From Escherichia coli (lineage in GTDB: Bacteria > Pseudomonadota > Gammaproteobacteria > Enterobacterales > Enterobacteriaceae): a stretch of 64,000 bases of DNA. The notes beneath the pieces are model-generated. The model made no database searches and was not told the origin of the DNA. It saw nothing but the letters and a program-made list of their open reading frames with translations. Positions 18,699-53,795 of the stretch are shown piece by piece. Location: NCBI RefSeq assembly GCF_050920415.1, contig NZ_CP169309.1; one strand, written 5' to 3'. The first letter of the stretch is position 1. Each line of letters opens with the position of its first letter. The position numbers were made by a program, and so were the translations under genes.

Positions 18699-18785
18699 GC
18701 CCGGATGGTGGAATCGGTAGACACAAGGGATTTAAAATCCCTCGGCGTTCGCGCTGTGCGGGTTCAAGTCCCGCTCCGGGTACCA
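18699..18785 (+). tRNA. leuZ: tRNA-Leu (TAA)
   Basis: 87 nt GCCCGGATGGTGGAATCGG...GGGTACCA, anticodon TAA; 3' two thirds lie in the prophage att repeat. Confidence 0.95.
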
Positions 18786-18855
18786 TGGGAAAGATAAGAA
18801 TAAAATCAAAGCAATAAGCAGTGTCGTGAAACCACCTTCGGGTGGTTTTTTTGTA
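18731..18855. repeat. attL: 125-bp direct repeat (3' 55 nt of tRNA-Leu plus the tRNA-operon terminator)
   Basis: Identical to 53671..53795. Confidence 0.9.
18829..18853 (+). terminator. glyW-cysT-leuZ operon terminator
   Basis: Hairpin ACCACC-TTCG-GGTGGT followed by TTTTTTT; duplicated at 53769..53793 inside attR. Confidence 0.7.
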
Positions 18856-18868
18856 TTTGTATTTTGTT

Positions 18869-18900
18869 AAATGGCGGTAAAGTGGCGATGGTGTGGCGAT
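18869..18900 (+). repeat. Candidate arm-type integrase-binding repeats (attL arm)
   Basis: Three tandem AAAGTGGCGAT-like copies; the same motif recurs next to int at 53564..53608. Confidence 0.4.
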
Positions 18901-18990
18901 ATGCAGAAATAATGATAGTACACGTCTGTTTAAACTCTAAGGGTGAAGCAAAACTCTCCTGCAACTCATCTGCATTTCGCATATTGAACT

Positions 18991-19092
18991 AGGGCCTTGG
19001 TTAAACCAAAGTTTTTTCTGGGATCTTCCCACTCAACTTCATTTTTCCTCCTACCATCCACCAAAAGGTGTCTGCGCTACTCTATCTTTTTT
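18991..19092 (+). repeat. Diverged ~105-bp direct repeat, copy A
   Basis: About 70% identical to 19994..20105 in the same orientation (TAGGGCCTYGGTTAAAC...CCACC...AAAGG...TCTATC...TTTTTT). Confidence 0.6.
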
Positions 19093-19325
19093 AATCTGAC
19101 AACATCCTGAGAAAAAGACAAATTCGTTAGATTTACTGTCTTTCTGCTGCCTCGAATGCTGATGTCTGCAGCACTGATAATAACTCTATCTCTTTGATAT
19201 AGATCTTTTTTTTGATGAATTGCACGGCATATTATCGTGATGGCACCTTCTTGTTAAAGGTGTTGTACTCCTCATCTCGATTTTATGATGTGGGCTATGA
19301 TTGGTTAGTAATAGAGTGTATCGGT

Positions 19326-19607
19326 ATGCGATGTGGTTTATTAATGGCAATCTGCCTTTGTTTGGTATCTTTTAGTGGGTATGCAGCAACAGGAAAGTCA
19401 GATGCTCAGATCAAGAAAGAAATAATTAAAGAGTCCATTGAATCTTATCCAGGCAATTGTGCGTGTCCGTATAATCATGCAAGGAATGGTAGTAGATGTG
19501 GTGGACGCAGTGCATATAGCCGTACTGGAGGGTATGACGTGGTATGTTATGAAAGTGATGTTACCGATGAAATGATCCGGCAATGGAAGCAGGAGAATGC
19601 TGAGTAA
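19326..19607 (+). CDS. Small Cys-rich secreted protein (prophage moron, function unknown)
   Basis: Signal-peptide-like N-terminus MRCGLLMAICLCLVSFSGYAA, then a Cys-rich mature region; low-GC islet; start uncertain (ORF track begins 19212). Confidence 0.5.
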   Translation: MRCGLLMAICLCLVSFSGYAATGKSDAQIKKEIIKESIESYPGNCACPYNHARNGSRCGGRSAYSRTGGYDVVCYESDVTDEMIRQWKQENAE

Positions 19608-19680
19608 TCTCTTTTAACTGATTTGTTGTGCGAGCATAATGTGCAGTTAACGGCTCACTAGCTAGTGAGAGTTCCAAAAA

Positions 19681-19717
19681 GAAACCCCGCAGTTTTTACG
19701 CTGCGGGGTTGTTATTC
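19681..19717 (+). terminator. Hairpin terminator after the moron gene
   Basis: AACCCCGCAG-TTTTTACG-CTGCGGGGTT followed by a T-rich stretch. Confidence 0.45.
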
Positions 19718-19993
19718 ATGCCTATGAGATAGGGTGCCTTATCGGCCTTACCCTGGCAACCGATTGACGGGGAGTTGCCTCCCCGTCGCGGTTTCCTTAC
19801 TGCTTACACTGTAAGAACGCCGCAAACTCCGCTCCCCAGAAGCTCATCCGTATTTCACACAGCGAACCGTGCAGCATCCAGATGATGAGGATTACCGTCA
19901 CGCAGAACGTGATGGCCGTAAGCGATTTTTGCGACATAGCGCTTGCTCCTTTGTTGGAGAGGCGCTAACCTATCACTTGCTAGGTTGACGGGT

Positions 19994-20126: not shown

Positions 20127-20387
20127 TTAATTCTGAGGTAAAGGCAAACTCATCTGATTGTTTCCCCTGTGTGAAGCTGGCAGCTCATGCCACGGGATAC
20201 CTTCTGAAGAGTGAACGCCGGAGGCGTGTTTTGATGTGAATTTATGGAAAGCTTCCAGTGTTGAGAAGCATACGCCGCATTCCAGATTGTTACACTGGTA
20301 ATACTTTTGCCGCACGGTGTTTGAATCATTTTCCGGACGACTGGTGCGGATACGGGCAGATGCGCCACAAAGCGGACAACGGAACAT
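20127..20387 (-). CDS. ogr: Ogr/Delta-type zinc-finger late-gene transcriptional activator
   Basis: MFRCPLCG...YYQCNNLECGVCF four-Cys arrangement typical of P2 Ogr; start may be downstream of the ORF-track start. Confidence 0.8.
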   Translation of the reverse strand: MFRCPLCGASARIRTSRPENDSNTVRQKYYQCNNLECGVCFSTLEAFHKFTSKHASGVHSSEGIPWHELPASHRGNNQMSLPLPQN

Positions 20388-20429: not shown

Positions 20430-21539
20430 TCACTCTGTTTCCGCTATCCATTCCGGGATTTTTGCTTCAAGCTCAAGCTGCGTGGTAAAGCCGCTGTTAT
20501 CAATGGTGTGCTCGGCTTTTGCAATAATCCAGTCCTGATTGTCGATGTCACTTTTGAAGCCTGTCACCGTGCCATGCATTTCGGGATAGAGTTCTGCACG
20601 TCCACGCGCCAGCGTGATGGAGAATGATGCGGCTCCGCGTTGTAGTTGCTGCCACTTTGCCGCCGCTGCGCGTCTTGCTGCCTGCTCGTTCTGATAAGTC
20701 TTGCGTAACACAAACACATTGCCTTCCGCGCCTTCCATATAATCACCTTCACGGCTGCTGCTTTTCTCCTTTTTGGGTTTTGGCGGTTTACGGCGTTTTA
20801 CGCTGACTTTTTTCTTTTTCCCGTAATTAAGATCAAGCCAGTAGGCGCGTACCCCCGTATACGCCTCGCGGTCAGCAATACGGAACTGATGGCGATCGCC
20901 GCTGCTGCGTGTAATGGCGAACGAGGGCAACGGCTGGCCCTGTGCGTTCACGCCACCACCTGGCATGATGAATAACAGATTGCCGCTTTTTACCGTGGTG
21001 ATTGCGCCCAGCATTTCCGCCATGCGCGTAAGGAAGGACATGTCGCTTTCTTCGGTCTGGTCGGCGTGGTCGATTTCAATATCCATCAGCATTTCGCTGA
21101 TTTGCGGTTTCAGGCCGTATCGGTGAGCAATTGCAGACACCACGCGTTCAACGGTCACATCATGCCAGGATACTTCGCGCTTGACGTTAAATTCATCCCG
21201 AAAATCTGCGCTTCTGGCTGAAATGGTCAGTCTGTCGGGCGGTCCTTCATGAGCAATTTCATCAACAATGTAAGTGCCTTTTTCTGTCAGCGGTTCTCCT
21301 TTCCAGCCAATGAGAACCGTCAGGCGCGCGCCCCGTGGCGGTAGCTGCAACTGACCATCTGCATCATCCAGCGTGATGGTGAGCTGGTCCGCCTCAAATC
21401 CCCGGTTGTCGGTCAGTGACAGGCTCATCAGGCGCTCTGCCACGCCTGACAGCGTTTTACCCTCCGCGAGAATATCAAAATCCGGCATTTTCACGGGGTC
21501 TGTGCCCTGACTGAGCAATTGCATGGTGGTGTCGGTCAT
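20430..21539 (-). CDS. Tail protein gpD (late control gene D family)
   Basis: About 369 aa from MTDTTMQLLS; recalled gpD family features; ORF-track N-terminal extension to 21671 judged spurious. Confidence 0.8.
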   Translation of the reverse strand: MTDTTMQLLSQGTDPVKMPDFDILAEGKTLSGVAERLMSLSLTDNRGFEADQLTITLDDADGQLQLPPRGARLTVLIGWKGEPLTEKGTYIVDEIAHEGPPDRLTISARSADFRDEFNVKREVSWHDVTVERVVSAIAHRYGLKPQISEMLMDIEIDHADQTEESDMSFLTRMAEMLGAITTVKSGNLLFIMPGGGVNAQGQPLPSFAITRSSGDRHQFRIADREAYTGVRAYWLDLNYGKKKKVSVKRRKPPKPKKEKSSSREGDYMEGAEGNVFVLRKTYQNEQAARRAAAAKWQQLQRGAASFSITLARGRAELYPEMHGTVTGFKSDIDNQDWIIAKAEHTIDNSGFTTQLELEAKIPEWIAETE

Positions 21540-21696: not shown

Positions 21697-22881
21697 ATGA
21701 GTGAAACTCGTTTTCATGGTGCCCGTGTTACGGAAAATACCGACCTGGTAACAGCGATTAACGATGTTGATTCCAGCGTTATCGGTATCGTGGCAACGGC
21801 GGATGATGCGGACGCGGAGCTGTTCCCGCTGAACAAGCCCACATTGCTGACCCGCGTCAATGACGTGCTGGGAAAATGCGGAACAACGGGGACGCTTTAT
21901 CGTGCGCTTAAGGCCATCGCAGACCAGGTGAGCACAAAGGTGATCGTCGTTCGCGTGGCTGAACACAAAGAAGAAGACGGAAAAACGCAGGATCAACTGG
22001 TTATCGGTGGTTCTGAATCTGACGGCAGCTATACGGGGATGTATGCGCTGCTTGTTGCAGAGCAGGATGAAAGCATCGGATACCGTCCGCGTATTCTGGC
22101 CGCGCCGGAGCTGGACACGGAGGCGGTGACAAAATCCTTGTGCGTGATTGCGGGTAAACTGCGCGCGTTTGTGTATGCCACATGTCATGGTTGTAACACG
22201 ATGGCTGAGGCGATTACCTACCGCCAGAAATTCAACGAACGTGAGGTGATGCTCTTATGGCCTGACTTCATCGCCTACAACCCGAAAAGTGGCAAAAACG
22301 AAACGTTCCCCGCGCCTGCTTATGCGTGCGGCCTTCGTGCGTACATTGACCATGAGCAGGGCTGGCACAAATCGCTGTCCAACGTTCCGGTTAAAAATGT
22401 GCTGGGAATGTCCAGGCATGTGTTCTGGTCGTTGCAGGCCGAAGACAGTGATGCCAACAGCCTCAACAACAAAGAAATCACGACCATTATTCGTCGCAAC
22501 GGGTTCCGCTTCTGGGGCAACCGCACACCGGAAACGAACGCCTACATCTTTGAGGTGTATACCCGAACCGCACAGGTACTGGCTGATTCAATTGCGGAAG
22601 CGCAGTTTGAAACCATCGACAGTCCACTGACGCCTGCGAACGTGAAGGATGTTATCAGTGCCATCAGGGCAAAACTGGATTCACTGGTTACTGCCGGGAA
22701 ACTGATTGGCGCGTCGTGCTGGTATGACGTGGTGGATAACAGCACCACGGATTTACGTCAGGGGCGTGTGCGTATTCGCTACAAATATACGCCTGTTCCT
22801 CCGCTGGAAGATATGGAGCTTTACCAGACGTTTACTGATGAATACTTTGATCCCGCATTTGCGGTGTTGGGAGGTGTCTGA
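21697..22881 (+). CDS. Contractile tail sheath protein (P2 FI-like)
   Basis: 394 aa with recalled FI motifs (DADAELFPLNKP, KLRAF, QGWHKSLSNV, RRNGFRFWGNRT, YTRTAQV, YKYTPVPPLE). Confidence 0.9.
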   Translation: MSETRFHGARVTENTDLVTAINDVDSSVIGIVATADDADAELFPLNKPTLLTRVNDVLGKCGTTGTLYRALKAIADQVSTKVIVVRVAEHKEEDGKTQDQLVIGGSESDGSYTGMYALLVAEQDESIGYRPRILAAPELDTEAVTKSLCVIAGKLRAFVYATCHGCNTMAEAITYRQKFNEREVMLLWPDFIAYNPKSGKNETFPAPAYACGLRAYIDHEQGWHKSLSNVPVKNVLGMSRHVFWSLQAEDSDANSLNNKEITTIIRRNGFRFWGNRTPETNAYIFEVYTRTAQVLADSIAEAQFETIDSPLTPANVKDVISAIRAKLDSLVTAGKLIGASCWYDVVDNSTTDLRQGRVRIRYKYTPVPPLEDMELYQTFTDEYFDPAFAVLGGV

Positions 22882-23393
22882 TGGCTGTACCAAAACATCT
22901 TCGCTTTTTTACGCTGTTTGTGAATGGTGAAAACGAAGTGGGTAAGGTGACGTCCGTCACTCCACCTAAACTGACGCGCAAAACTGAAAGCTATCGTGGC
23001 GGTGGCATGATGGGGGCGGTGAGTATCGACCTCGGTCTTGATGATTCTGCGCTTGATGCGAGTTTTGTCATGGGGGGCGCAGTTCGTGAGCTGTTCCTTA
23101 AATATGGCGGCACGATTGACAGCACGTTGCTGCGTTTTGCGGGTGAATACTACACCGATGCAGAAAGTGATCTGTATGAAATCGAGATGCGCGGGCGTGT
23201 GACGGAAATTGATATGGGGGAAGCCAAACAGGGCGAAGCCACATCACACACTTACGCTGTCAAAAACACCTACTACAAGCTGAGCGTTAACGATCGTCCG
23301 CTGTGGGAAATCGACCTGCTGAACCACATCTACCGGAAGGACGGCAAGGACATCGTGCCTGATCGCATCCGTTCCGCGCTTGGGCTTGGCTGA
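22881..23393 (+). CDS. Tail tube protein (P2 FII-like)
   Basis: 170 aa ORF immediately after the sheath gene with overlapping stop/start. Confidence 0.85.
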   Translation: MAVPKHLRFFTLFVNGENEVGKVTSVTPPKLTRKTESYRGGGMMGAVSIDLGLDDSALDASFVMGGAVRELFLKYGGTIDSTLLRFAGEYYTDAESDLYEIEMRGRVTEIDMGEAKQGEATSHTYAVKNTYYKLSVNDRPLWEIDLLNHIYRKDGKDIVPDRIRSALGLG

Positions 23394-23449
23394 TAAGTAA
23401 TATGCAGGCGGCGCAGTGCGTCGCCTCTGACTGAAAAAGGAGACAACTG

Positions 23450-23824
23450 ATGCAAAACATCAATACTGAAACCCGGAATAACGCCGTGGCGGATGATGTG
23501 ACGGCAGGTGAGGATATGGCTGTCGAACGTGGCGTAAAACTGGCCCGACCAATTGAGCGCGGTGGCGAAAAAATCACGTATGTGGAAATTACCGGGGCTA
23601 TTGAGCAGGCTGGATCTCTGCGTGGTCTGTCGCTGTCTGATGTGCTGAATCTGAAAGCGGATACCATGTTCACGCTGTTGCCTCGCGTGACCTCGCCACG
23701 ACTGGATGAAGTGATGATTAAAAAAATGTCGTCACGCGATTTTATTCAGTTGTGCGCTGTGGCTGTAAATTTTATGAGCGAGCCAGACTCTGGCGCGAAG
23801 AGCGTGCAGGAGACGGCAGCGTAA
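23450..23824 (+). CDS. Tail assembly chaperone gpE-like
   Basis: Position between tube and tape measure; carries a slippery heptamer near its 3' end. Confidence 0.6.
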   Translation: MQNINTETRNNAVADDVTAGEDMAVERGVKLARPIERGGEKITYVEITGAIEQAGSLRGLSLSDVLNLKADTMFTLLPRVTSPRLDEVMIKKMSSRDFIQLCAVAVNFMSEPDSGAKSVQETAA

Positions 23825-23988
23825 TCACCCTGGTGTGCTTTGAGCACATCGAAGATCTGGTGGCGGATATTGCCGCCATTTTTAACTGGTCGCCCGCCGA
23901 AATCTTCATGATGACGCCCGGCGAAGTGGTTAGCTGGCGTGAGCGGGCGGCACTTCGCAGCGGGAATGCAGACAATGAAGACTCTTGA
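23752..23988 (+). CDS. E' extension frame of the gpE+E' frameshift fusion chaperone
   Basis: -1 frame ORF overlapping the gpE 3' end and the tape-measure 5' end; analogous to P2 E/E' and lambda G/GT. Confidence 0.55.
   Translation: MRCGCKFYERARLWREERAGDGSVITLVCFEHIEDLVADIAAIFNWSPAEIFMMTPGEVVSWRERAALRSGNADNEDS
23767..23773 (+). other. Programmed -1 ribosomal frameshift site (A_AAT_TTT)
   Basis: X_XXY_YYZ heptamer in the gpE zero frame; the -1 frame stays open to 23988 (E' extension). Confidence 0.6.
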
Positions 23989-26776: not shown

Positions 26777-26782
26777 GGAGTC

Positions 26783-27277
26783 ATGGCCATGATGATGATC
26801 TACGGCATGTTTGTTTTTGAGCTGCGCACATTGCCGCATCAGCAGTTACAGCAAAACAAAAGCTGGCGGCATGTGAAAAATGAACGCGTTAACCGTTCAG
26901 CAAGCTGGCAGTATATCGGGGCAGGCGATGATCGCATCGTTCTTTCTGGTGTGCTTTATCCTGAAATTACAGGTGGCGAAGTATCGCTTTCGTTGCTGAC
27001 CACGCAGGCATATACAGGACGCCCCTGGCCTCTGATTGATGGTGTCGGGCAGATTTACGGCATGTATGTCCTGACCGGAACGAATACGACCCGCTCCGAG
27101 TTTGATCGCTACGGTAAGGCGAAAAAGATAGAATTTTCACTGACCCTTGAACGCTGTGATGAGGATTTGCGGGAGCGCCTGCAATCCTCATCGTTCAGCG
27201 ATATGCTGTCCGGCTTCAAAGATAAGGTCACATCATCCCTTAACAGCGCGGCCAGCTCCGTTAAAGGGCTGTTTTGA
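26783..27277 (+). CDS. Tail protein gpU-like
   Basis: 164 aa ORF directly after the tape measure. Confidence 0.75.
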   Translation: MAMMMIYGMFVFELRTLPHQQLQQNKSWRHVKNERVNRSASWQYIGAGDDRIVLSGVLYPEITGGEVSLSLLTTQAYTGRPWPLIDGVGQIYGMYVLTGTNTTRSEFDRYGKAKKIEFSLTLERCDEDLRERLQSSSFSDMLSGFKDKVTSSLNSAASSVKGLF

Positions 27278-27284
27278 TTAACGC

Positions 27285-27314
27285 AAAACCGCTAATGGTC
27301 AGATTAGCGGTTTT
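27285..27314. terminator. Bidirectional hairpin terminator between gpU and the invertase
   Basis: Perfect 11-bp stem AAACCGCTAAT/ATTAGCGGTTT with 6-nt loop, between convergent genes. Confidence 0.6.
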
Positions 27315-44290: not shown

Positions 44291-44353
44291 TGTGTCCCCC
44301 TTGTTTATGCTCCCGGGTTAAAGTCATCAGGGCGGATGCGCCCTGATGTTGTG

Positions 44354-44665
44354 TTATTCGGGAAATAACGCCCGGATATTTCCGGCCATCTGACTGGTTA
44401 TCTGTGCGGCTGATACTGGCTGTGACGCGGGGCGTTCTGTCCTGGGTTGTGTCACTGATAACGCCTCATCATCAGCCCATGCAGCCAGTCGGTAAGCCTC
44501 TGCCGGATTCATTTTCAGTAGTGCCAGCCCGGCCAGAAAAGCCACGCGTTGACCACTTTTGCGGGCTTCTGGTGTAAGGCTGTCCAGCCAGGCGCATGCT
44601 TCGCCTTCGTTCTTGACGGCGGCGGGCTTCAGATAGAAACTTATCCGTCTGGTTGGTGTCGTCAT
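44354..44665 (-). CDS. ParR-like DNA-binding adaptor
   Basis: About 103 aa from MTTPTRRISFYLKP...LDSLTPEARK...AFLAGLAL...ALFPE; resembles recalled plasmid R1 ParR. Confidence 0.65.
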   Translation of the reverse strand: MTTPTRRISFYLKPAAVKNEGEACAWLDSLTPEARKSGQRVAFLAGLALLKMNPAEAYRLAAWADDEALSVTQPRTERPASQPVSAAQITSQMAGNIRALFPE

Positions 44666-44669
44666 TGGC

Positions 44670-45629: not shown

Positions 45630-45660
45630 GTCGCTTTTCCTTATGTTGATTAATTAATCG

Positions 45661-45756
45661 TTTACGGGATTCTGAAATCCCGTTTTTGCCTGCTTTGTGC
45701 GCGCTTCATATATCACTGCGCGTTTTTTGCTCATTTACGGGATTCGTGAGTCCCGT
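45661..45756. promoter_or_regulatory. Two 20-bp palindromes upstream of parM (candidate parC-like centromere/operator)
   Basis: ACGGGATTCTGAAATCCCGT (45664..45683) and ACGGGATTCGTGAGTCCCGT (45737..45756), each preceded by TTT; the second overlaps the last codons of gene A. Confidence 0.5.
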
Positions 45757-48528
45757 TTCTGTCTGTTTTTTGTTTCCGCTGGTCAGGCCACCCCGCAGCA
45801 GGTCTGCTTTGCGGCTGGCGCGTTCAGTGGTTTCACTGATTCTCTGTGCGTGCTCTGCGTCGCGGATGGCGCGCAGCATGTCAGAAAGCACAGTAACGGG
45901 TGTTTTCATGGTGTTCTGGTCCTGCTGAAGTGTGGATGCCAGGCGTGCGGCGGCTTCAGGGTCTGATGCCCCCAGCTGTGCCAGATAGCTGGCGACCGGG
46001 TTATGGCGGATCTCCGTGCTGCTTACGCCATGATTACGGCTCAGGCGCTGCCAGAGCTGCGTGATTCGGCTGTCCGGGCGGGTATCCGGTTTGCGTACAA
46101 TTTCAAATCCCTGCGGTGCAATGATGCTGCCGTCAACGTACAGACTGCCGCCCCGTAACAGGTGCTGCATCTGTTGTTCACCGATATGCAGGCCGAGAGA
46201 TTCAGCAGACTCCCGCCATTCTTTAGCGAGTAATTCGTGGTTATCAGGCAAAGGCCGCTGCTGTTTGCGGCTCTGTGTCCAGCTCTGCATTTCATCACTG
46301 CTGTTTTTTGCCTGTTTGTCACGAAGCGAACGCATCAGCGCCCGGCGTTCGTGCCGTTTCAGTGAGCGCATCCATTCGTTCACTTCAACGCCGTCAGGGA
46401 GCTGCGGCCACGGTGCTGGCCGTTCTTCCGGCTGTTCTGTCCCGTTGTTGTCCGTTTCCTGTGCACGGGGACAGTTATTGCCACGAGTCCAAGGGGCGGC
46501 AGGGCCGCCCTGAAGGTCAAAACCATTTTCGTGGGCGTTGTCTCCCGGTTCTGGTTTACGTCTTACCAGCTTCCAGTTATCCGGATGCGTGCACACACGG
46601 GAGGATTCCCCGATGAGTGGTGACCAGATCCCGTAAATCTGTACGCTCTGTTCGCCGTAATCGTTCAGCTCATCTGCGAGGTCGTAGGCGGTGCGAATCA
46701 GGTAGTCCTTGCGTGGAACAAGCACGCCACCCTGTTTTTCAATGTAGGTGGCAAAACACCCGGCATCGGCGGCAGCGAGTACCGCATCCATTGCATCATC
46801 TTTCAGCCGTTGCGGGCCTTCCGGATTGCGTGCCATCTGGCTGGCAAGGCGGCGCAGTTCACGCCACACCTGACGGGAGGGGATGCCAAAGAACTGGAAC
46901 TGACGGACCCGGTGAAGGCGCGCCCAGCCGATGGCGCGCTCCACGCTCTCGGCCATTGATTTTCCGGTTTCGTGGTCAACGCGTGGCTTGCCCGTTTTCG
47001 GGTCGATGCCATCCACGGCGCGGCTGTCCAGGTTCTTTCCGATGTAGGTGGCGATGTAGCTGGTTGGTGTGCCTTTTGAGCCGTCGACATACTCCGCCTT
47101 AAAACGCGGAGTTATGTCATCGCCCAGCTCGTGGCGGTCCTCCTGAATGGCAATATCGCAGACGTGGGACACGATGGTTTCAATCTCGTCCGGATGTGCA
47201 AAGACCATCATATGCCAGTGCACAGTGCCGTCATGGTGAGGCTCCACCGTGCGGATGCCATACCAGCGCAGGCCGTCGCGGTTCAGTTTTTTGCGGACCG
47301 CCGCAAAAAACGTGTTAACCAGGTAATCGCTGGAGTCGCGCATGGTGGCCCCGTTCCATTTGGGGTTCGGATGACCGTTCTCCGTTGTTGCGTGGTATTT
47401 TGACGGGCAGGTGACGGTCAGAAACACCGCTCTGTCGCCACGGGCTTCGGCCAGAAGTTCCAGTCCCTTCATGGTGGCCATCATTTCTGCCTTACGGTGA
47501 ACCGGGTTACTTACTCCCGCGTAATACACCGTCTCGAGATCAATCGTGAACCCGTCTTCATTTTCCAGCATGAAACTTTTCAGGAAATCGCGTGTTTTCT
47601 CGCGCTGTGCGCGAAACTCGCTTAACGCGTCCTGGCTCAGATAGGGGGATGTTTTTCTGGAAACCAGACAGGCGGCGCGGAGTTGTTCTTCCCGCCACTC
47701 ACAACGTAACAGCCACAGTTTGCGTTTCCACCATTCCGCACAGGTCAAGCGAAGGATTGCGCCCGGCAGCAGCTCCGTGTCCGGTTCGTTCCTCCGGTCT
47801 TTGTCTGTTGTCAGTGCGTCATAATGTGGAGGCATGGCGTGCAGGTGTAACGCCATGCGGGCCAGCATCTGATAAGCCTTCAGGGTTACATCCATGGTCA
47901 GCTCGCCATCAGTCGCGCCAAAGCCATCGCAGAGTTTTTCGAAGGTGCTGCTGAACATCGCCGCCGTCATGGTGGCCAGCGTCTGTATCTGGTGTTTGTT
48001 GAGCTGCGGCAGGTAAAGCAAATCGTCCAGGCGTTCGCGTCCGGCAAGGGAGCGATAACCCGGTGTCAGCCAGCGGTGGTCGGTGCGGTCCAGACGTTCG
48101 AATATTTTGCGCAGGGTTCCGCACGCGTAGCGTTCAGCCTGCCAGCTCTTTTTGCCTTTCCGGCGATCGGCTTCCTGTTTTTTGCGCAGGAAGGAGAGGT
48201 GGCGAATAAGCGGATCGCGCAGATAGGACGGCAGCAGGCGCAGCGAGGCCATGGCTTCATCCACCGCGCCACGTGCCTGTTTTCTGGCGTCTCCTGCCAG
48301 TGTGATGGTTTTGTCCTGTTTTTCCTGTGCGTCCAGGCTTTTATTAATCAGGTTGCCCAGCGGCGTGGCGGAGAACGCCGCATCAGCCATTTCCTGGCGG
48401 CGCTCGTTCTCTGCCCGGTAGGCATCCAGCCAGGAGGAAAGCGCGGATTCAGGAGCGGGGATCCCCGTTCCTTCACGCCCCACTGCGTGGCGCGGTTGTT
48501 GCCAGTCCCTGATGTACTCTGCCGTCAT
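45706..48528 (-). CDS. Replication initiation endonuclease (P2 gpA-like, rolling-circle)
   Basis: 940 aa at the canonical position downstream of the early operon; longer than the ~760 aa I recall for P2 A. Confidence 0.8.
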   Translation of the reverse strand: MTAEYIRDWQQPRHAVGREGTGIPAPESALSSWLDAYRAENERRQEMADAAFSATPLGNLINKSLDAQEKQDKTITLAGDARKQARGAVDEAMASLRLLPSYLRDPLIRHLSFLRKKQEADRRKGKKSWQAERYACGTLRKIFERLDRTDHRWLTPGYRSLAGRERLDDLLYLPQLNKHQIQTLATMTAAMFSSTFEKLCDGFGATDGELTMDVTLKAYQMLARMALHLHAMPPHYDALTTDKDRRNEPDTELLPGAILRLTCAEWWKRKLWLLRCEWREEQLRAACLVSRKTSPYLSQDALSEFRAQREKTRDFLKSFMLENEDGFTIDLETVYYAGVSNPVHRKAEMMATMKGLELLAEARGDRAVFLTVTCPSKYHATTENGHPNPKWNGATMRDSSDYLVNTFFAAVRKKLNRDGLRWYGIRTVEPHHDGTVHWHMMVFAHPDEIETIVSHVCDIAIQEDRHELGDDITPRFKAEYVDGSKGTPTSYIATYIGKNLDSRAVDGIDPKTGKPRVDHETGKSMAESVERAIGWARLHRVRQFQFFGIPSRQVWRELRRLASQMARNPEGPQRLKDDAMDAVLAAADAGCFATYIEKQGGVLVPRKDYLIRTAYDLADELNDYGEQSVQIYGIWSPLIGESSRVCTHPDNWKLVRRKPEPGDNAHENGFDLQGGPAAPWTRGNNCPRAQETDNNGTEQPEERPAPWPQLPDGVEVNEWMRSLKRHERRALMRSLRDKQAKNSSDEMQSWTQSRKQQRPLPDNHELLAKEWRESAESLGLHIGEQQMQHLLRGGSLYVDGSIIAPQGFEIVRKPDTRPDSRITQLWQRLSRNHGVSSTEIRHNPVASYLAQLGASDPEAAARLASTLQQDQNTMKTPVTVLSDMLRAIRDAEHAQRISETTERASRKADLLRGGLTSGNKKQTETGLTNPVNEQKTRSDI

Positions 48529-48534
48529 AGTGAT

Positions 48535-48900
48535 TTACTTCGTCATGCCATTCAGGGTGTCGCGGCAGACTGTAGCCAGCCGCTGAATTTCCAGCACGGT
48601 GTCTTCTGTGTCGGCATGGCGATGTGTGATGCGGATGCTGTCGGCAATCACATCGACGATTGCAGAGGATGGGCGCTGGTAAATGCCAATAACGGACGGG
48701 GTGCCACCTTCAATGCGGTAAAGCCTGTAATTTCCCTCGTGGCTGTCAATCATGTAGCGACCATCAATAACAATCTTTCCGTCAGCGAGCTGCGGTACAG
48801 GCAGGGATTTCAGGTACATGTCATAACGATCACGCACGCGAGCGGCAAGATCACGTTCTGTGTTGAGCAGGTATTCAAGAAAGTCGTTGGCGAGAATCAT
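48535..48900 (-). CDS. Hypothetical early protein (gpB position)
   Basis: 121 aa ORF immediately upstream of A. Confidence 0.45.
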   Translation of the reverse strand: MILANDFLEYLLNTERDLAARVRDRYDMYLKSLPVPQLADGKIVIDGRYMIDSHEGNYRLYRIEGGTPSVIGIYQRPSSAIVDVIADSIRITHRHADTEDTVLEIQRLATVCRDTLNGMTK

Positions 48901-49041
48901 TGCGGCAATCCTCTTGTTACAGATGTGCGAAGGCCTCCCGCCGCAAGGTGCAGGAAAGGCCCGGAACAGGAATTAATGGAGTTTGTTTTGCAGCCGGATG
49001 AGCTGCTGAAGCCCGACGTGGTTTCCGGCAGTTGGAGGTGC

Positions 49042-49287
49042 TCATGCTCTGATTTCCCTCAGTAGCTGGTTGAACATCTGGGTTAGTGGGTTGCTACACC
49101 CAAACGGCATCGGGTTTACCTGATAGGAAAAGCGACCGCCTGTTTTGCGCTCTTTTCTTATGACTGAACCGCTGCGCCAGAGACGGCGTAGCTCCGCATT
49201 AATGGTTGTGGTTGGTGTATTCAGTGCTGCGGCGATTTCTCCACCGCTACAACCCGGATTGGCAGCGATGTAGTCCAGAATGGTCAT
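49042..49287 (-). CDS. Small winged-helix-like DNA-binding protein
   Basis: 81 aa; GGEIAAALNTPTTTINAELRRL resembles an HTH. Confidence 0.45.
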   Translation of the reverse strand: MTILDYIAANPGCSGGEIAAALNTPTTTINAELRRLWRSGSVIRKERKTGGRFSYQVNPMPFGCSNPLTQMFNQLLREIRA

Positions 49288-49538
49288 CTGCGTGACTCCT
49301 GTACCTGTCTGATAAGATTCACCTGCACCACGTTGGTGGCGCAGAAGTAAGTGCCGTCAGTGAGATAGATGTGATGTGCATCCTTTTCTGAACGGTGTTT
49401 GTCGATTGTGGTAATCAGGCGTTCGTCAACTTCGTATTCACGTCCTCTGGAGGTGAAACGAACGACAGGAAAATGCTTAATTGCCATTACGCCTCCTTGG
49501 CGTGTGCGAATACCTCCGCGAATGCGGATTGTTTTCAC
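49284..49538 (-). CDS. Hypothetical early protein
   Basis: ORF in early operon; start uncertain. Confidence 0.35.
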   Translation of the reverse strand: MKTIRIRGGIRTRQGGVMAIKHFPVVRFTSRGREYEVDERLITTIDKHRSEKDAHHIYLTDGTYFCATNVVQVNLIRQVQESRR

Positions 49539-49683
49539 ATTTTCTTATTTAACCTGGGGTCTTATTTGCGCGGTTATTCTTCAGTGAAAAAGCGTTCAAT
49601 CTTTTTTACTGAATTAATAATTCGCATAATCCCAATGGCGCAGACCACCGAAATAATCAGAACAAGCCATGAGATAAATATAC

Positions 49684-49929
49684 TCATGCGATATTTCCCA
49701 GCTTATACGGTTCAATATGTTCCCCGCATTCTGCGGCACAGATCAGCTCGGAAAGTTCGTTAAGTGCATCCAGATCATCAGCGTAAAAAGCCACGTCATA
49801 CAGACTTCGGATTGCTCTGGTCAATGAGTCACGGGCCGCACGTTCAGCATGAGTGCCTGATGCACTTAAGCGAAAATAAAAACGCTCAAGTGCTTTGTTA
49901 ATGAGAGTTTTATATTCTTTGCCCATCAC
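49684..49929 (-). CDS. Hypothetical early protein
   Basis: 81 aa ORF in early operon. Confidence 0.4.
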   Translation of the reverse strand: MMGKEYKTLINKALERFYFRLSASGTHAERAARDSLTRAIRSLYDVAFYADDLDALNELSELICAAECGEHIEPYKLGNIA

Positions 49930-49964
49930 AACGCCCTTTAATCTGCTTTCTGTATTTCAGCTTC

Positions 49965-50228
49965 TTAATCCATACAAATAATTTCGATATAGGGTTCATC
50001 GCCATTAACCTGGCGTGCCTTTTCAGCTTCGCTAATGATTTCTCGTACGGTCTGGTACGGAAGTTCCACAAGCAGTCGCGTGCCGTTCAGATAAACGTAA
50101 GTGGCTTCGTCGGCTCCGTTTTTACCCGCCGGAGTCACTCCGTCAATAGCGGATGCACGTAATAACAGTTCACCGCGAAAATCAATAAAACGGATAAATA
50201 CACCTTGTGCATGGTCTTTGGTCATAAA
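49965..50228 (-). CDS. Hypothetical early protein
   Basis: About 87 aa from MTKDHAQG; ORF-track extension overlaps the upstream gene. Confidence 0.4.
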   Translation of the reverse strand, partial: FMTKDHAQGVFIRFIDFRGELLLRASAIDGVTPAGKNGADEATYVYLNGTRLLVELPYQTVREIISEAEKARQVNGDEPYIEIICMD

Positions 50229-50235
50229 GCACCTG

Positions 50236-50586
50236 TTATAAATCAGCCTGTTTAATAAAACTTTGCCTGCGAAGCAGACGATCAACCGTGCGAAGTGCTT
50301 CGTATAATGTGAAATCCTGCCCGAACTGATTGTCGCCACAGCTCAATGCAAAAATGCGGTTTCCGGTAAACGGATTGCGTGGGCATTTGTGGACCACGAT
50401 TCCAGCTTTCTCAATCAGCCAGGCATGCTCGCCGATTTGTTTTACAGCGTGGCCATCCGGTGTTGCGTGCGTCTCGTTCAGGTTATAGCGACTGTTACTA
50501 CGTGATGCACTGGTAGTGACGTGGTGTACATGGCGTTCTACGCCATTACGAAATTTGGAGTATGGATTATTAGCGTTTTTTTTCAT
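50236..50586 (-). CDS. Hypothetical early protein
   Basis: 116 aa ORF in early operon. Confidence 0.4.
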   Translation of the reverse strand: MKKNANNPYSKFRNGVERHVHHVTTSASRSNSRYNLNETHATPDGHAVKQIGEHAWLIEKAGIVVHKCPRNPFTGNRIFALSCGDNQFGQDFTLYEALRTVDRLLRRQSFIKQADL

Positions 50587-50607: not shown

Positions 50608-50811
50608 TTAGCTGTTAGCCAAAGCGTCTTTTAACATCGCCACAAGGTTTACTTCAGGCTTTTCCATTTTGGCGCGTTTGGGGCGGATAATAATTCGACC
50701 GTCAGCCAACATCTTTTTGCATGTATTAAGAGGGATACCTGTTATCTCTGCATATTTCTGCAGGGATACATAGGGGGCATTCACATTGATATTGATGGTT
50801 ATACCTGACAT
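50608..50811 (-). CDS. Small HTH DNA-binding protein (excisionase/CII-like candidate)
   Basis: 67 aa; VSLQKYAEITGIPLNTCKKML resembles an HTH; second gene of the early operon. Confidence 0.55.
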   Translation of the reverse strand: MSGITININVNAPYVSLQKYAEITGIPLNTCKKMLADGRIIIRPKRAKMEKPEVNLVAMLKDALANS

Positions 50812-50827
50812 CCCACTAGCCTCCTGA

Positions 50828-51034
50828 TCAGGAAGATTTGTTTTGTTCTTTCTGGGTTAGCTCTAGGCCGCGAAGGAAGATCATGCGCGCCATGTTAGAG
50901 GATGAGCGTTGTTCTTTAGCTGCCATTTCATCAATGACGGCTCGCTCCTCGAGGGACAGCCGAAGTGCCAGTCTTGGACCTGTGGCGGTGTTACGCGGAA
51001 TGCGTGATCTGGTATCGTGAAGAACTTGTTTCAT
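50828..51034 (-). CDS. Cro/Cox-position ribbon-helix-helix repressor
   Basis: 68 aa; LRLSLEERAVIDEMA is RHH-like; first gene of the early operon, divergent from cI. Confidence 0.6.
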   Translation of the reverse strand: MKQVLHDTRSRIPRNTATGPRLALRLSLEERAVIDEMAAKEQRSSSNMARMIFLRGLELTQKEQNKSS

Positions 51035-51109: not shown

Positions 51110-51514
51110 ATGAAAAATGATATTGGTCAGCGGTTGCGTGAGGAAAGGGAAAGATTGGGACTTAGTCAAGTTGCCATGAGCGACATTGGTGGAGTCAAAA
51201 AGCTAACTCAGCTTAGATATGAGAAAGGAGATAGCTTTCCTGATGCTGCGTATTTGGCAGCGCTGTCTCGTTTTGGCCTTGATGTTCAGTATGTTGTGTT
51301 GGGAATTCACTCACCTGAAACTTATAACGATGATGAGCAGGAGTTGATTACTCGCTTTCGAGCAGCTTCGTTAGATGTGAAAAACGCGGTGATTGGGGCT
51401 TTAAAAGGTGCGATCAGTGAAAAGGAAACTCAGCCATCAGGACGTGAGTTAAATATTTCTGGTGGTAATAACCGTATTGCTGGTCGTGACTATAACGAAA
51501 CTAAGGGTAGGTGA
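51110..51514 (+). CDS. Immunity repressor CI (XRE-family HTH)
   Basis: 134 aa; LREERERLGLSQVAMSDIGGVKKLTQLRYEKGDSFP is a typical XRE HTH; transcribed toward int. Confidence 0.8.
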   Translation: MKNDIGQRLREERERLGLSQVAMSDIGGVKKLTQLRYEKGDSFPDAAYLAALSRFGLDVQYVVLGIHSPETYNDDEQELITRFRAASLDVKNAVIGALKGAISEKETQPSGRELNISGGNNRIAGRDYNETKGR

Positions 51515-51529
51515 TAGTAGGGAGGTGAC

Positions 51530-52180
51530 ATGGCCGTCAACTCAAACGGTTCAAACAATCGCGTTGCTGGGCGTGATTTTCACGAAAAGAATATTCAGAT
51601 AGAGCGATATGATGGTTCTCATACCGTCAATATCGCAATCCCTTCGAATAATGATGATGACGATCGCCCTTTGCTTAAGGCTCAGCGTAAGGAGCTAAAT
51701 AGTTTGGTTGCTGCTATTGCAGAAGCTAGCAATACTGAAGCGTTTATTATTTGGCAAAAAGTACATGCTGAGATTGGTGTAGCTGGTATTGATGATATGA
51801 CAGTAAATCAATATAAAACAGCGGAGAGTTTTCTGCATGCAATGCTTGAGCGATGTAAAGATCATGATGCCTGTAAGGCTCTTGTAAGTTTATTACTACG
51901 TAACAGTGAAGACTGTGGACTTCGACAAAAACTTCTGCGGTATTGCCATATCAATTTCGGTACAGGACGTTTAAACGATCTTACTCGTTCTCAGTTACAG
52001 TCTGCATTGTCGTGGTTAGAGCAACAATCGGCATCAAGCCACACAGAGAGTTCGACCTTACCAGAAGTCCGACTTCGTGCTTCAGAATTAATCCGACTTT
52101 ATCCAAAAGAAATAATATTCTTTATCTGCGTAGGGGGTTTGGTAGGCGGTGTCATTTCTAGGGTGCTTTTTAATTTGTAA
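51530..52180 (+). CDS. Tail-anchored membrane protein of unknown function (immunity-region moron)
   Basis: 216 aa with good RBS (GGAGG) and a single C-terminal TM helix; N-terminus repeats a motif from the CI C-terminus. Confidence 0.55.
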   Translation: MAVNSNGSNNRVAGRDFHEKNIQIERYDGSHTVNIAIPSNNDDDDRPLLKAQRKELNSLVAAIAEASNTEAFIIWQKVHAEIGVAGIDDMTVNQYKTAESFLHAMLERCKDHDACKALVSLLLRNSEDCGLRQKLLRYCHINFGTGRLNDLTRSQLQSALSWLEQQSASSHTESSTLPEVRLRASELIRLYPKEIIFFICVGGLVGGVISRVLFNL

Positions 52181-52209
52181 TCTTACTTGAGCTAAATTGA
52201 GGTAATGAT

Positions 52210-52557
52210 ATGAAAGTAAAAAAGGTTCAACTATTAGTTACTTTTTTATCTATGTTTTCTTTTTCCGCCGTCGCAATGCCTTTTAAAACTATTGAACGTG
52301 AGAGTTTCAATGGGGTATGGCCATTTAATACTGATGAGGTTCAATTACAGTGTCTTGATGGTAATCCTTATGTGATGAATTTTGACGATAATAAGTTATA
52401 TGCACTTACAGGTTTGGCTCGAATAAAAGGTAAAACATTTGGTGCGTTACCGTTAGATAACAATAATCCATTTTGGCTAGATAATGATGCCGCCCCAGGG
52501 TTAAAAAAGAGTCTGGGGGATGTCACTAAGGCTGCATTTGATTTATGTGATAAGTAA
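52210..52557 (+). CDS. Secreted protein of unknown function (immunity-region moron)
   Basis: 115 aa with signal peptide MKVKKVQLLVTFLSMFSFSAVA; low-GC gene. Confidence 0.55.
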   Translation: MKVKKVQLLVTFLSMFSFSAVAMPFKTIERESFNGVWPFNTDEVQLQCLDGNPYVMNFDDNKLYALTGLARIKGKTFGALPLDNNNPFWLDNDAAPGLKKSLGDVTKAAFDLCDK

Positions 52558-52562
52558 CTAAA

Positions 52563-53564
52563 ATGTCGGTTCGTAAGATTCCATCAGGTAAATGGCTTTG
52601 CGAATGTTATCCCTACGGGGCATCGGGAAAACGCATTCGTAAACAGTTTGCGACAAAAAGTGAGGCGCTCTCTTATGAGCGCCGTTTAATGAATAGTAGA
52701 GTTGGAGACGAGTTTCAAGATGGTTCTGGTCCTCGTCTTTCTGAGTTGATTGCTCGTTGGTTTGAGATGTACGGTAAAACCTTGTCCTCTGGTGCAGAGC
52801 GCAAAGTCAAACTTGAGGCGATTTGTTCCAGGCTGGGAGATCCATTTGCTTCTCAGTTTGACAAAAATATGTTTGCTACTTATCGGGAAAGAAGGCTATC
52901 AGGAGAATGGAATCCCAAGGGGAAGAAAAAACTTAGTGAAGCAACCGTTAATCGCGAGCAGTCATATCTACATGCTGTTTTTGCCGAACTGAAGCGCCTT
53001 GGGGAGTGGTCTGGTGAAAACCCCCTGACTGGTATTCGCAAGTTTCGTGAGGAAGAAAAGGAACTGGCGTTTCTGTATGTAGATGAGATTGAACGCCTTC
53101 TGATTGCGTGTGATGAGTCACGGAATAAAGATTTGGGGGTTGTTGTCCGTATTGGGCTTGCGACTGGTGCTCGGTGGAGTGAAGCAGAAGGATTAAAGCA
53201 ATCTCAAGTACTGCCCGGTCGAATCACATTTGTTAAAACTAAAGGAAAGAAGAACCGCACTGTACCGATTTCACCTCAATTGCAGGCTATGCTTCCTAAA
53301 AAACGAGGAGCGCTATTTTCACCATGTTATGAGGCTTTTGACGCTGCAATTAAGAGAGCGAAGATCGAGCTTCCTGATGGGCAATTAACTCATGTGCTAC
53401 GTCACACGTTTGCCAGTCATTTTATGATGCGGGGCGGAAATATTCTTGTGTTGCAAAAAATACTGGGGCATAGCGATATAAAAATGACTATGCGTTATGC
53501 GCATTTTGCTCCAGGTCATTTAGAGGCTGCTGTTGAATTGAACCCTTTTGACAATAGAGGGTAA
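52563..53564 (+). CDS. int: Tyrosine integrase (P2 Int-like)
   Basis: 333 aa with catalytic box HVLRHTFASHFMMRGGNILVLQKILGHSDIKMTMRYAHF; adjacent to attR. Confidence 0.9.
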   Translation: MSVRKIPSGKWLCECYPYGASGKRIRKQFATKSEALSYERRLMNSRVGDEFQDGSGPRLSELIARWFEMYGKTLSSGAERKVKLEAICSRLGDPFASQFDKNMFATYRERRLSGEWNPKGKKKLSEATVNREQSYLHAVFAELKRLGEWSGENPLTGIRKFREEEKELAFLYVDEIERLLIACDESRNKDLGVVVRIGLATGARWSEAEGLKQSQVLPGRITFVKTKGKKNRTVPISPQLQAMLPKKRGALFSPCYEAFDAAIKRAKIELPDGQLTHVLRHTFASHFMMRGGNILVLQKILGHSDIKMTMRYAHFAPGHLEAAVELNPFDNRG

Positions 53565-53608
53565 AAAGTGGCGATAAAAAGTGACAATAGATTCAAATGG
53601 CGTTGTAT
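53564..53608 (+). repeat. Candidate arm-type integrase-binding repeats (attR arm)
   Basis: AAAAGTGGCGATA, AAAAGTGACAATA and CAAATGGCGTTGTA; same motif family as 18869..18900. Confidence 0.4.
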
Positions 53609-53670
53609 AGAGCCATTTTCAAAGTTAATAAAATCATAAGGTTATGATTTATAAATGGTGGTTGATAGTT

Positions 53671-53795
53671 TTTAAAATCCCTCGGCGTTCGCGCTGTGCG
53701 GGTTCAAGTCCCGCTCCGGGTACCATGGGAAAGATAAGAATAAAATCAAAGCAATAAGCAGTGTCGTGAAACCACCTTCGGGTGGTTTTTTTGTA
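53671..53795. repeat. attR: 125-bp direct repeat (partial tRNA-Leu 3' end plus terminator)
   Basis: Identical to 18731..18855. Confidence 0.9.

What the first reader, a model, noticed from the sequence alone, without database searches (positions are those of the whole stretch)
18731..53795. P2-family prophage integrated at tRNA-Leu with intact-looking att sites
Perfect 125-bp direct repeats duplicate the 3' 55 nt of the tRNA plus the operon terminator, so the tRNA is reconstituted at attL. Integrase is adjacent to attR, and AAAGTGGCGAT-like arm-type repeats occur on both sides (18869..18900, 53564..53608). All modules needed for a functional phage appear present with no obvious frameshifts, so the element is probably inducible.
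Basis: partly seen in the sequence, partly recalled or inferred. Interest (0 to 1): 0.45.

Follow-up and report, generated by a model that had tools for sequence, protein, structure and literature searches.

The report
Intact P88-like prophage in leuZ
This is an ordinary, apparently complete P2-family prophage (P88-like, genus Xuanwuvirus) inserted in the E. coli leuZ tRNA gene; the same integration module sits at this spot in about 9% of complete E. coli genomes.

Summary
Perfect 125-bp direct repeats (18731-18855 and 53671-53795) bracket a 34.9-kb element between glyW-cysT-leuZ and yecA. Removing the element restores a K-12-like empty site.

The element is a Peduoviridae prophage of genus Xuanwuvirus. 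It is about 95% identical to phage P88 over 79% of its length, with P2 gene order. Every structural, lysis, packaging and replication gene matches P88 full length, with no internal stops and no more than three gapped alignment positions.

It differs from P88 in the integrase (39% aa), the immunity genes, the tail-fibre tips and the cargo genes. The integrase/att module matches phage 520873 and 504 of 5,426 complete E. coli genomes.

The repeat begins in the anticodon loop. The proposed arm-type repeats are real: the exact 11-mer occurs only twice in 64 kb, both times in the att arms. Similar motifs recur beside related integrases.

Two corrections apply. The "terminator" part of the repeat is the 67-nt 3'ETS-leuZ sponge sRNA, so the lysogen carries two copies. 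"Probably inducible" is not supported: the repressor has only a helix-turn-helix domain, no LexA box is present, and the "derepression" gene of relatives is reduced to a 40-nt stub.

Verdict: a well-described, ordinary prophage of low interest.

The parts
18699..18785 (+). leuZ, tRNA-Leu(UAA), intact. Its 3' 55 nt lie inside the left att repeat.
   Evidence: ARAGORN, Rfam, identical to K-12 leuZ
18731..18855 (+). Left att identity block (B-O-P' junction), 125 bp. It starts at the first base of the anticodon loop.
18786..18852 (+). 3'ETS-leuZ sponge sRNA plus operon terminator, copy 1. This copy now ends the glyW-cysT-leuZ operon.
   Evidence: K-12 annotation b4759, 67 nt directly after leuZ; sequence identity
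18869..18900 (+). P' arm: three tandem 10-11-bp repeats, AAATGGCGGT / AAAGTGGCGAT / GGTGTGGCGAT. Inferred to be arm-type Int binding sites.
   Evidence: similar GAGTGGCGATGAAATGGCGATG in the P' arm of the attP of related integrases, L074 and L060
19326..19607 (+). Small cargo protein with a signal-peptide-like N-terminus (phrog_27544), function unknown.
19797..19937 (-). Hok/Gef-family (MokW-like) toxin gene, 100% identical to the P88 copy.
20127..20387 (-). ogr/Delta-like zinc-finger late-gene activator.
20430..21539 (-). gpD (late control D / tail protein).
   Evidence: 98.6% to P88 over the full length, no stops
21697..27277 (+). Tail operon: sheath FI, tube FII, E/E', tape measure T, U.
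   Evidence: Full-length matches to P88, no stops; tail tube TIGR01611 above its cutoff
27304..27903 (-). Hin/Gin-type serine DNA invertase, 199 aa.
   Evidence: phrog_125, E=5e-99
27968..29793 (.). Invertible host-range segment bounded by 29-nt inverted repeats (27968-27996 and 29765-29793). It carries an alternative fibre tip (27931-28440) with its chaperone (28440-29033), and the currently expressed chaperone (29005-29439).
29441..30922 (-). Tail fibre H, 493 aa, currently fused in frame to one of the two tips.
30919..34440 (-). Baseplate and tail genes I, J, W, V, S, R.
   Evidence: Full-length matches to P88, no stops
34578..35694 (-). Lysis cassette: holin, M15 endolysin, LysB (DUF2570).
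35697..39251 (-). X, head completion L, small terminase M, major capsid N (P2 family), scaffold O.
   Evidence: TIGR01551 scores 254 bits against a cutoff of 219.65
39406..42203 (+). Large terminase P and portal Q.
42204..42690 (.). Non-coding region next to the portal gene, conserved with P88. Inferred to hold the cos site, which was not identified.
   Evidence: 83-89% to P88 here; the P2 cos sequence is absent
42695..43666 (-). Four small cargo genes (phrog_5117, 1714, 1832, 1380) in the variable spot next to the portal gene. This roughly 1-kb cassette is about 94% identical to lambdoid Stx phages.
43626..48900 (-). Two small genes, partition protein, ParM, 940-aa replication endonuclease, and a 121-aa gene.
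   Evidence: 95-100% to P88 over the full length
48973..49012 (-). 40-nt 3' stub of the 'derepression protein' gene. Relative to P88, genes 10-13 and most of gene 14 are deleted.
49042..50586 (-). Small early-operon genes. These include the phrog_3800 gene (49968-50225), which a nonsense codon at 49965-49967 shortens by 8 codons.
50608..51034 (-). Cox-like excisionase/repressor (67 aa) and Arc-like repressor (68 aa), at the start of the early operon.
   Evidence: phrog_575 and phrog_3431
51110..51514 (+). C-type immunity repressor, 134 aa, helix-turn-helix only.
51530..52557 (+). Two cargo genes between C and int: a 216-aa protein with a hydrophobic C-terminal stretch (phrog_5825 / PF27202) and a 115-aa DUF2511 protein with a signal-peptide-like N-terminus.
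52563..53564 (+). Tyrosine integrase, 333 aa (Int_N plus Phage_integrase domains).
53565..53604 (+). P arm: AAAGTGGCGAT / AAAGTGACAAT / AAATGGCGTT, starting right after the int stop codon. Inferred to be arm-type Int sites.
53632..53650 (.). Palindrome AATCATAAGGTTATGATTT about 20 bp left of the core. It is conserved in 70-77% identical integrase modules and in mEp390 attP. It may bind an accessory factor (IHF-like); this is an inference.
53671..53795 (+). Right att identity block (P-O-B' junction): an orphan 3' half of leuZ plus 3'ETS-leuZ copy 2 (53726-53792).

Best explanation
The interval is a complete-looking temperate phage genome of the family Peduoviridae (P2-like), genus Xuanwuvirus (P88-like). 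It is integrated into leuZ, the last gene of the E. coli glyW-cysT-leuZ tRNA operon. Shown: the boundaries, the site, the gene content and the integrity of the genes. Inferred mechanism: the phage tyrosine integrase (52563-53564) recombined a phage attP with the bacterial site, with strand exchange in or next to the 7-nt anticodon loop (TTTAAAA). The attP would have run: arm repeats, palindrome, core, then the 3' half of leuZ, 3'ETS-leuZ and terminator, then a second set of arm repeats. Because the phage carries everything downstream of the crossover, the tRNA, the 3'ETS-leuZ sponge sRNA and the operon terminator are rebuilt at the left junction. The displaced bacterial copy is left as an orphan after int at the right junction. 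Lysogeny would be maintained by a short helix-turn-helix C repressor transcribed with two cargo genes and int. This operon faces a divergent early operon that starts with Arc-like and Cox-like genes. Excision would need Int plus the Cox-like protein. An invertase flips a 1.8-kb segment to switch between two tail-fibre tips. The prophage is probably viable, but by sequence it is P2-type, with no evident SOS link, rather than 186- or lambda-type.
For: Repeats and tRNA are confirmed. Deleting 18856-53795 gives one collinear 97.5% alignment to the K-12 uvrC-pgsA-glyW-cysT-leuZ-yecA-tyrP region. The element matches phages P88, P884B11 and 520873 at 94-96% nucleotide identity over 80-87% of the query in each of two half-genome searches. 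By my own blastn on the whole prophage, 79% of it aligns to P88 at 95.3% identity, giving about 75% intergenomic similarity, and about 82% to 520873. All P88 structural, lysis, packaging, replication and partition proteins match full length, with no internal stops and no more than three gapped alignment positions. The P2-family capsid, portal and tail-tube models score above their curated cutoffs. The integrase has the expected domains. The same C-cargo-int-attR-yecA junction is present in 504 of 5,426 complete E. coli genomes, and the left junction in 325. Integrases 70-77% identical (six distinct loci, L038-L051) sit next to the same tRNA-Leu(UAA) anticodon-loop sequence in other hosts; the 82% relative, L036, has too little downstream sequence to tell. 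TGGCG-type tandem motifs follow the int stop codon in several relatives down to 55% identity, though other relatives have variant or no such motifs. Three unrelated elements (mEp390, an O145 restriction-modification island, 705R4) have identity blocks that start at exactly the same base.
Against: No experiment was possible. The cos site could not be located; the P2 cos sequence is absent. One small early gene (phrog_3800) has lost its last 8 codons. A deletion removed five accessory genes, including the 'derepression protein' gene. No sequenced free virion genome in the phage collection carries this integrase together with the circular attP junction; only the prophage-derived record 520873 carries the integrase. 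The crossover position is inferred from where the identity starts, not demonstrated.
Confidence: 0.88

Rival explanations
1. One reading: the prophage is inducible, that is, DNA damage (mitomycin C) triggers excision and particle production.
For: The gene set is complete. The relative P88 was recovered from mitomycin C-treated cultures of its lysogen (PMC5285337).
Against: P88 has a different immunity region and integrase; no match was found for its C or Cox proteins, and its integrase is 39% identical. The repressor here is 134 aa with only a helix-turn-helix domain and no S24 peptidase. No LexA box exists in the window; the only CTGT-N8-ACAG lies inside the replication gene, and the best 20-mer match is 12 of 20. 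The 'derepression protein' gene of P88 and E5 is reduced to a 40-nt out-of-frame stub. By established knowledge, P2 itself has a repressor that RecA does not inactivate and is not inducible. 186 is inducible only through the LexA-controlled Tum, and no counterpart was seen here. Tum itself was never used as a query.
Confidence: 0.2
2. Despite looking intact, the element is a fixed, non-viable (cryptic) prophage kept for its cargo: Hok, the C-linked membrane protein, DUF2511 and the ParM module.
For: There is a nonsense codon in one early gene, and accessory early genes are deleted. Degraded remnants of the same phage type occupy this site in O145 strains. No free-phage record carries this integrase.
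Against: All known essential functions are full length at 95-100% amino-acid identity to a phage that forms plaques. Both att copies are identical and the arm repeats are intact. The truncated gene is also flagged as frameshifted in another lysogen, E5, which is compatible with dispensability but does not show it.
Confidence: 0.15

Closest known systems
Escherichia phage P88 (Xuanwuvirus P88, Peduoviridae; NC_026014)
   Same: Same gene order. About 95% nucleotide identity over 79% of the prophage. All virion, lysis, replication and ParM/partition proteins are 95-100% identical, apart from three 63-78% outliers (gpI, the constant part of H, and gpE).
   Different: The integrase is only 39% identical. 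P88 uses another site; a 14-bp attP core was reported (PMC5285337). The immunity genes differ: P88 has a 93-aa C and a 141-aa Cox. The fibre tips and cargo differ. P88 keeps the ead-like, lipoprotein and 'derepression' genes that are deleted here.
Escherichia phage 520873 (Xuanwuvirus xv520873; NC_049344, a prophage-derived record)
   Same: Same integrase, C, Arc-like and Cox-like genes and the same leuZ/yecA junction. About 82% intergenomic similarity.
   Different: That record carries an IS100 in the sheath gene and several split genes. Its cargo next to the portal gene and its fibre tips differ.
Phage P2 (Peduovirus)
   Same: Overall architecture: att-int-C facing cox and the early operon, then Q-P facing O-N-M-L and so on, with FI-FII-E-T-U-D-ogr next to att. 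It has a P2-family capsid, an Ogr-type activator, and variable cargo spots next to Q and next to att. The P2 map itself is from established knowledge.
   Different: Nucleotide similarity is confined to the tail-fibre region, about 6% of the query. P2 has no tRNA target and no invertible fibre segment. This element has a larger replication protein and a ParM module.
Lambdoid phage mEp390 and other leuZ-targeting elements
   Same: Their identity blocks start at the same anticodon-loop base and run to the same terminator. The mEp390 attP also carries a leuZ half plus a 3'ETS-like segment.
   Different: The mEp390 integrase is only 21% identical and lies on the other side of attP. Its leuZ/3'ETS copy is 88.5% identical, with compensatory T-stem changes and a changed terminator loop.

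Membership tests
Peduoviridae (P2-like phages) | P2-family major capsid protein, with portal and tail-tube orthologues | tested here: met
   TIGR01551 scores 254 bits (cutoff 219.65), TIGR01540 scores 217 (cutoff 166), TIGR01611 scores 116.9 (cutoff 102.75)
Peduoviridae (P2-like phages) | P2 gene order, with Q-P divergent from O-N-M-L, the FI-FII-E-T-U-D-ogr block next to att, and int-C facing cox | tested here: met
   ORF map and collinear matches to P88; ogr/Delta-like and Cox-like hits
Genus Xuanwuvirus | At least 70% nucleotide similarity over the genome to a member. The ICTV genus threshold is from established knowledge. | tested here: met
   About 75% to P88 and about 82% to 520873, a one-sided blastn estimate
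Species Xuanwuvirus P88 or xv520873 | At least 95% nucleotide similarity over the genome | tested here: not met
   75% and 82%; no complete E. coli genome holds a near-identical copy of 42200-51100, the best being 95% coverage at 96.4%
tRNA-integrating tyrosine-recombinase element, anticodon-loop class | Tyrosine recombinase adjacent to att | tested here: met
   Int_N plus Phage_integrase domains; phrog_1, E=1e-76; the ORF ends 106 bp from the repeat
tRNA-integrating tyrosine-recombinase element, anticodon-loop class | The identity block starts in the anticodon loop and restores the tRNA 3' part | tested here: met
   The repeat starts at 18731 and the anticodon is at 18733-18735; several other elements share the same start base
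tRNA-integrating tyrosine-recombinase element, anticodon-loop class | Int binds the arm repeats, and strand exchange occurs in the loop | not testable with these tools
   Only comparative conservation of the TGGCG repeats is available
SOS-inducible prophage (lambda CI type) | Repressor with an S24 self-cleavage domain | tested here: not met
   Pfam, NCBIfam and PHROGs find only helix-turn-helix domains in the 134-aa C
SOS-inducible prophage (186 Tum type) | LexA-box-controlled antirepressor gene | tested here: not met
   No LexA box. No Tum-like gene was recognised in the annotations and family hits obtained, but Tum was never used as a query. The 'derepression' gene is a stub.
Functional (viable) prophage | All essential genes intact | tested here: met
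   No internal stops and no more than three gapped positions in matches to the P88 essential genes; the short fibre chaperone matches homologues end to end
Functional (viable) prophage | Excision and particle formation | not testable with these tools
   Needs the strain

The most novel reading that the evidence does not exclude
The att site is more than a landing pad. This phage lineage, and independently the lambdoid mEp390, carries a full copy of the 3'ETS-leuZ sponge sRNA in attP. 3'ETS-leuZ titrates RyhB and RybB (bioRxiv 10.1101/2021.04.25.441314). After integration the lysogen has two copies. The orphan copy lies at the 3' end of the C-cargo-int operon, with no terminator-like site detected on the + strand between int and it. 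The repressor promoter could therefore drive extra sponge and shift the host's iron-stress and envelope-stress sRNA thresholds, and a phage copy that has diverged would rewrite the host sponge on integration. Nothing here shows that the orphan copy is expressed or processed.
Probability: 0.1. Interest if true: 0.45.

Novelty: new member of a known kind. Interest (0 to 1): 0.12.

Why it matters
The main value is for annotation. The work gives exact prophage boundaries and identifies the element as a Xuanwuvirus mosaic. It assigns the integration module to a leuZ anticodon-loop class that is very common in E. coli. It also warns that an intact gene set does not imply SOS inducibility in P2-type phages.

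A secondary point is that leuZ is a shared hotspot used by several unrelated integrases. Every element that lands there must bring its own copy of a regulatory sponge sRNA. This offers a simple natural system for asking whether prophage att sites alter host sRNA dosage.

Tried and rejected
- **P2 cos site.** I searched for the P2 cos sequence with up to 3 mismatches and found nothing. The cos site is therefore only inferred to lie next to the portal gene.
- **Rfam.** A gathering-threshold search of 17000-56000 found only the three tRNAs. No Sok, 3'ETS or phage RNA families matched.
- **PADLOC.** A scan of ten immunity, integration and cargo proteins found no defence-system match beyond weak helix-turn-helix hits. 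I did not pursue a defence-island reading. The two ParM-side cargo genes and hok were not scanned.
- **LexA boxes.** Strict and relaxed searches found none.
- **Free-phage attP.** A synthetic attP junction searched against 50,697 phage records matched only the prophage-derived record 520873 on the int side. No sequenced virion confirms excision for this integrase.
- **The 216-aa cargo protein.** Pfam found nothing significant and NCBIfam gave a weak Flk-like match (58 bits, cutoff 353). A large-database search showed only a widespread family of hypothetical or membrane proteins (PF27202). I rejected calling it Flk.
- **P-arm resemblance to leuZ.** I considered that the P-arm sequence ATGGTGG..TAG was a relic of the 5' half of leuZ. 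Relatives do not share it, so I treat it as chance.
- **Literature.** Full-text searches found leuZ named as an integration site for an O145:H28 element (PMC7067040). No paper linked 3'ETS-leuZ to a prophage att site.

Full report
**Observation**

The window has three adjacent tRNA genes: Gly(GCC) at 18484-18559, Cys(GCA) at 18613-18686 and Leu(UAA) at 18699-18785. A direct repeat links 18731 to 53671. By direct comparison it is exact for 125 bp, at 18731-18855 and 53671-53795. It extends no further on either side and occurs nowhere else in the window. It covers the last 55 nt of tRNA-Leu, beginning at the first base of the anticodon loop, plus 70 nt downstream.

**Site**

The flanks are E. 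coli uvrC-pgsA-glyW-cysT-leuZ on the left and yecA-tyrP on the right. Removing 18856-53795 gives a single collinear alignment (97.5%) to the empty K-12 site.

K-12 annotates the 67 nt directly after leuZ as the small RNA 3'ETS-leuZ. This is an RNase E-processed sponge for RyhB and RybB (bioRxiv 10.1101/2021.04.25.441314). It is present twice, at 18786-18852 and 53726-53792.

In K-12 and in three other lysogens the right-hand copy ends GTG|CCTGC rather than GTA|CCTGC. The usual identity block is thus 124 bp, and the window has an extra matching base at 53795.

**Identity of the element**

Megablast against 50,697 phage records finds P88, P884B11, 520873, 500465-2 and Citrobacter phage Shae_phiSM. 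Identity is 94-96% over 80-87% of the query in each of two half-genome searches. All taxonomically assigned hits are Peduoviridae, genus Xuanwuvirus. P2 itself matches only in the fibre region.

My blastn estimate of intergenomic similarity is about 75% to P88 and about 82% to 520873. That means the same genus but a different species.

The capsid, portal and tail-tube proteins pass the curated NCBIfam cutoffs, including the P2-family capsid model. The gene order is that of P2.

**Integrity**

I translated all 53 annotated P88 genes and searched them against the window.

- Every virion, lysis, packaging, replication and partition protein matches from first to last residue in one segment.
- Most are 95-100% identical. 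The exceptions are gpI, the constant part of H, and gpE, at 63-78%.
- A second pass looked for stop codons inside the matches. It found none in these genes.
- That pass found two exceptions. One is a 47-codon P88 ORF in the non-coding region next to the portal gene, which is probably not a gene.
- The other is a small early gene (phrog_3800, unknown function). A nonsense codon at 49965-49967 removes its last 8 codons. The same gene is flagged as frameshifted in another lysogen.

The parts that differ from P88 are also whole.

- The integrase, C, Arc-like and Cox-like genes have the same lengths as in 520873 and, except for the Arc-like gene which is not annotated there, in strain E5.
- The invertase is full length.
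- The 144-aa fibre chaperone matches homologues end to end.
- A 1.8-kb invertible segment, bounded by 29-nt inverted repeats, carries a second fibre tip and chaperone.

**Att arms**

The exact 11-mer AAAGTGGCGAT occurs only twice in 64 kb. One copy is 24 bp right of the left repeat. The other is immediately after the int stop codon. Each sits in a run of three related 10-12-bp units.

I fetched 80 loci encoding relatives of the integrase and read the DNA after the stop codon.

- Relatives at 70-77% identity (six distinct loci, L038-L051) lie next to the same tRNA-Leu(UAA) anticodon-loop sequence in other hosts. The 82% relative, L036, has too little downstream sequence to tell.
- Relatives at 55-57% identity lie next to other tRNA genes or to a sequence I read as the ssrA 3' end.
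- Tandem TGGCG-type motifs follow the int stop in several of these, such as L036, L038-L040, L054, L062, L081 and L082, although the surrounding DNA has diverged. Others have variant motifs (TGGCAG, TGTCGC) or none.
- Two loci that read as attP (L060, L074) have ATGGCGATGAAATGGCGATG just after the terminator, as in the window's left arm.

This conservation supports the arm-site reading. Binding itself was not tested.

A palindrome, AATCATAAnnTTATGATTT, about 20 bp left of the core is also conserved. It also appears in mEp390.

**Crossover position**

Several elements with unrelated arms have identity blocks that begin at the same base. These are this phage, lambdoid mEp390 (integrase 21% identical), a restriction-modification island in O145 strains, and 705R4. 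This argues that strand exchange happens at the anticodon-loop end. It also argues that the rest of the block exists to rebuild the tRNA, the sRNA and the terminator. This is an inference.

**Frequency**

The right junction (C, two cargo genes, int, att, yecA) is present at 80% coverage or more in 504 of 5,426 complete E. coli genomes. The left junction is present in 325. Some of these are remnants.

No genome holds a near-identical copy of the early and cargo region; the best is 95% coverage at 96.4%. This prophage is therefore a new mosaic of known modules.

**Inducibility**

Nothing in the sequence links this prophage to the SOS response.

- The repressor has only a helix-turn-helix domain.
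- There is no LexA box.
- A deletion relative to P88 removed genes 10-13 and all but the last 40 nt of the 'derepression protein' gene. That name is an annotation only; PHROGs lists the family as unknown.
- P88 was obtained from mitomycin C-treated cultures (PMC5285337). However, it has a different immunity region and also lacks a LexA box.

I therefore rate SOS induction at about 0.2 and viability at about 0.6-0.7.

**Verdict**

The finding is a correct and careful description of an ordinary object. It is a new member of a well-known kind and scores low for interest. The only mildly unusual point is that the att site contains a complete regulatory sRNA, which integration duplicates.

Noticed in passing
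window 18786-18852 and 53726-53792: The part of the att repeat beyond the tRNA is the 67-nt 3'ETS-leuZ sponge sRNA, so the lysogen has two copies. The second lies after int, with no terminator-like site found between them on the + strand. No paper in the library links this sRNA to a prophage att site.
   Followed up: partly
window 51465-51514 and 51530-51590: The C-terminal tail of the repressor (GGNNRIAGRDYNE) and the N-terminus of the next protein (GSNNRVAGRDFHE) share a peptide motif. The DNA encoding it differs at synonymous positions, which suggests selection on the peptide in both proteins. Its meaning is unknown.
   Followed up: partly
window 51530-52557: Two cargo genes sit inside the repressor-integrase operon. 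One is a 216-aa protein with a hydrophobic C-terminal stretch, from a family widespread in Enterobacterales (PF27202, phrog_5825, weak Flk-like match). The other is a 115-aa DUF2511 protein with a signal-peptide-like N-terminus.
   Followed up: partly
window 48973-49012: A 40-nt out-of-frame stub of the 'derepression protein' gene marks a deletion of five accessory early genes relative to P88.
   Followed up: yes
window 49965-49967: A nonsense codon shortens a small early gene (phrog_3800, function unknown) by 8 codons. The same gene is annotated as frameshifted in the E5 prophage.
   Followed up: yes
window 27304-29793: This is a Hin/Gin-type invertase with a 1.8-kb invertible segment offering two tail-fibre tips and two chaperones. 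No phage in the collection has this whole host-range module.
   Followed up: partly
window 42829-43793: A roughly 1-kb cassette of small genes next to the portal gene is about 94% identical to lambdoid Stx2 phages (Ea22/EaA neighbourhood). This is an example of exchange between P2-like and lambdoid phages.
   Followed up: no
window 44354-45629: A ParM and partition-protein pair, a plasmid-type segregation module, lies next to the replication gene, as in P88. It is 95-100% identical to the P88 copy.
   Followed up: no
L001 23713; L006 2499-2619; L007 3001-3124; L027 after the repeat: leuZ is a shared hotspot. A restriction-modification island, lambdoid mEp390, 705R4 and a further element integrated in tandem all start their identity block at the same anticodon-loop base, each with different arm repeats. 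The mEp390 attP copy has compensatory T-stem changes and a changed terminator loop.
   Followed up: partly
window 53795: A is found where K-12 and three other lysogens have G. This one base makes the repeat 125 bp rather than 124 bp. It could be a host polymorphism or a trace of the recombination event.
   Followed up: partly
window 19797-19937: A Hok/Gef-family toxin gene lies near the left end, but no Sok or other antisense RNA family reached the Rfam threshold.
   Followed up: partly
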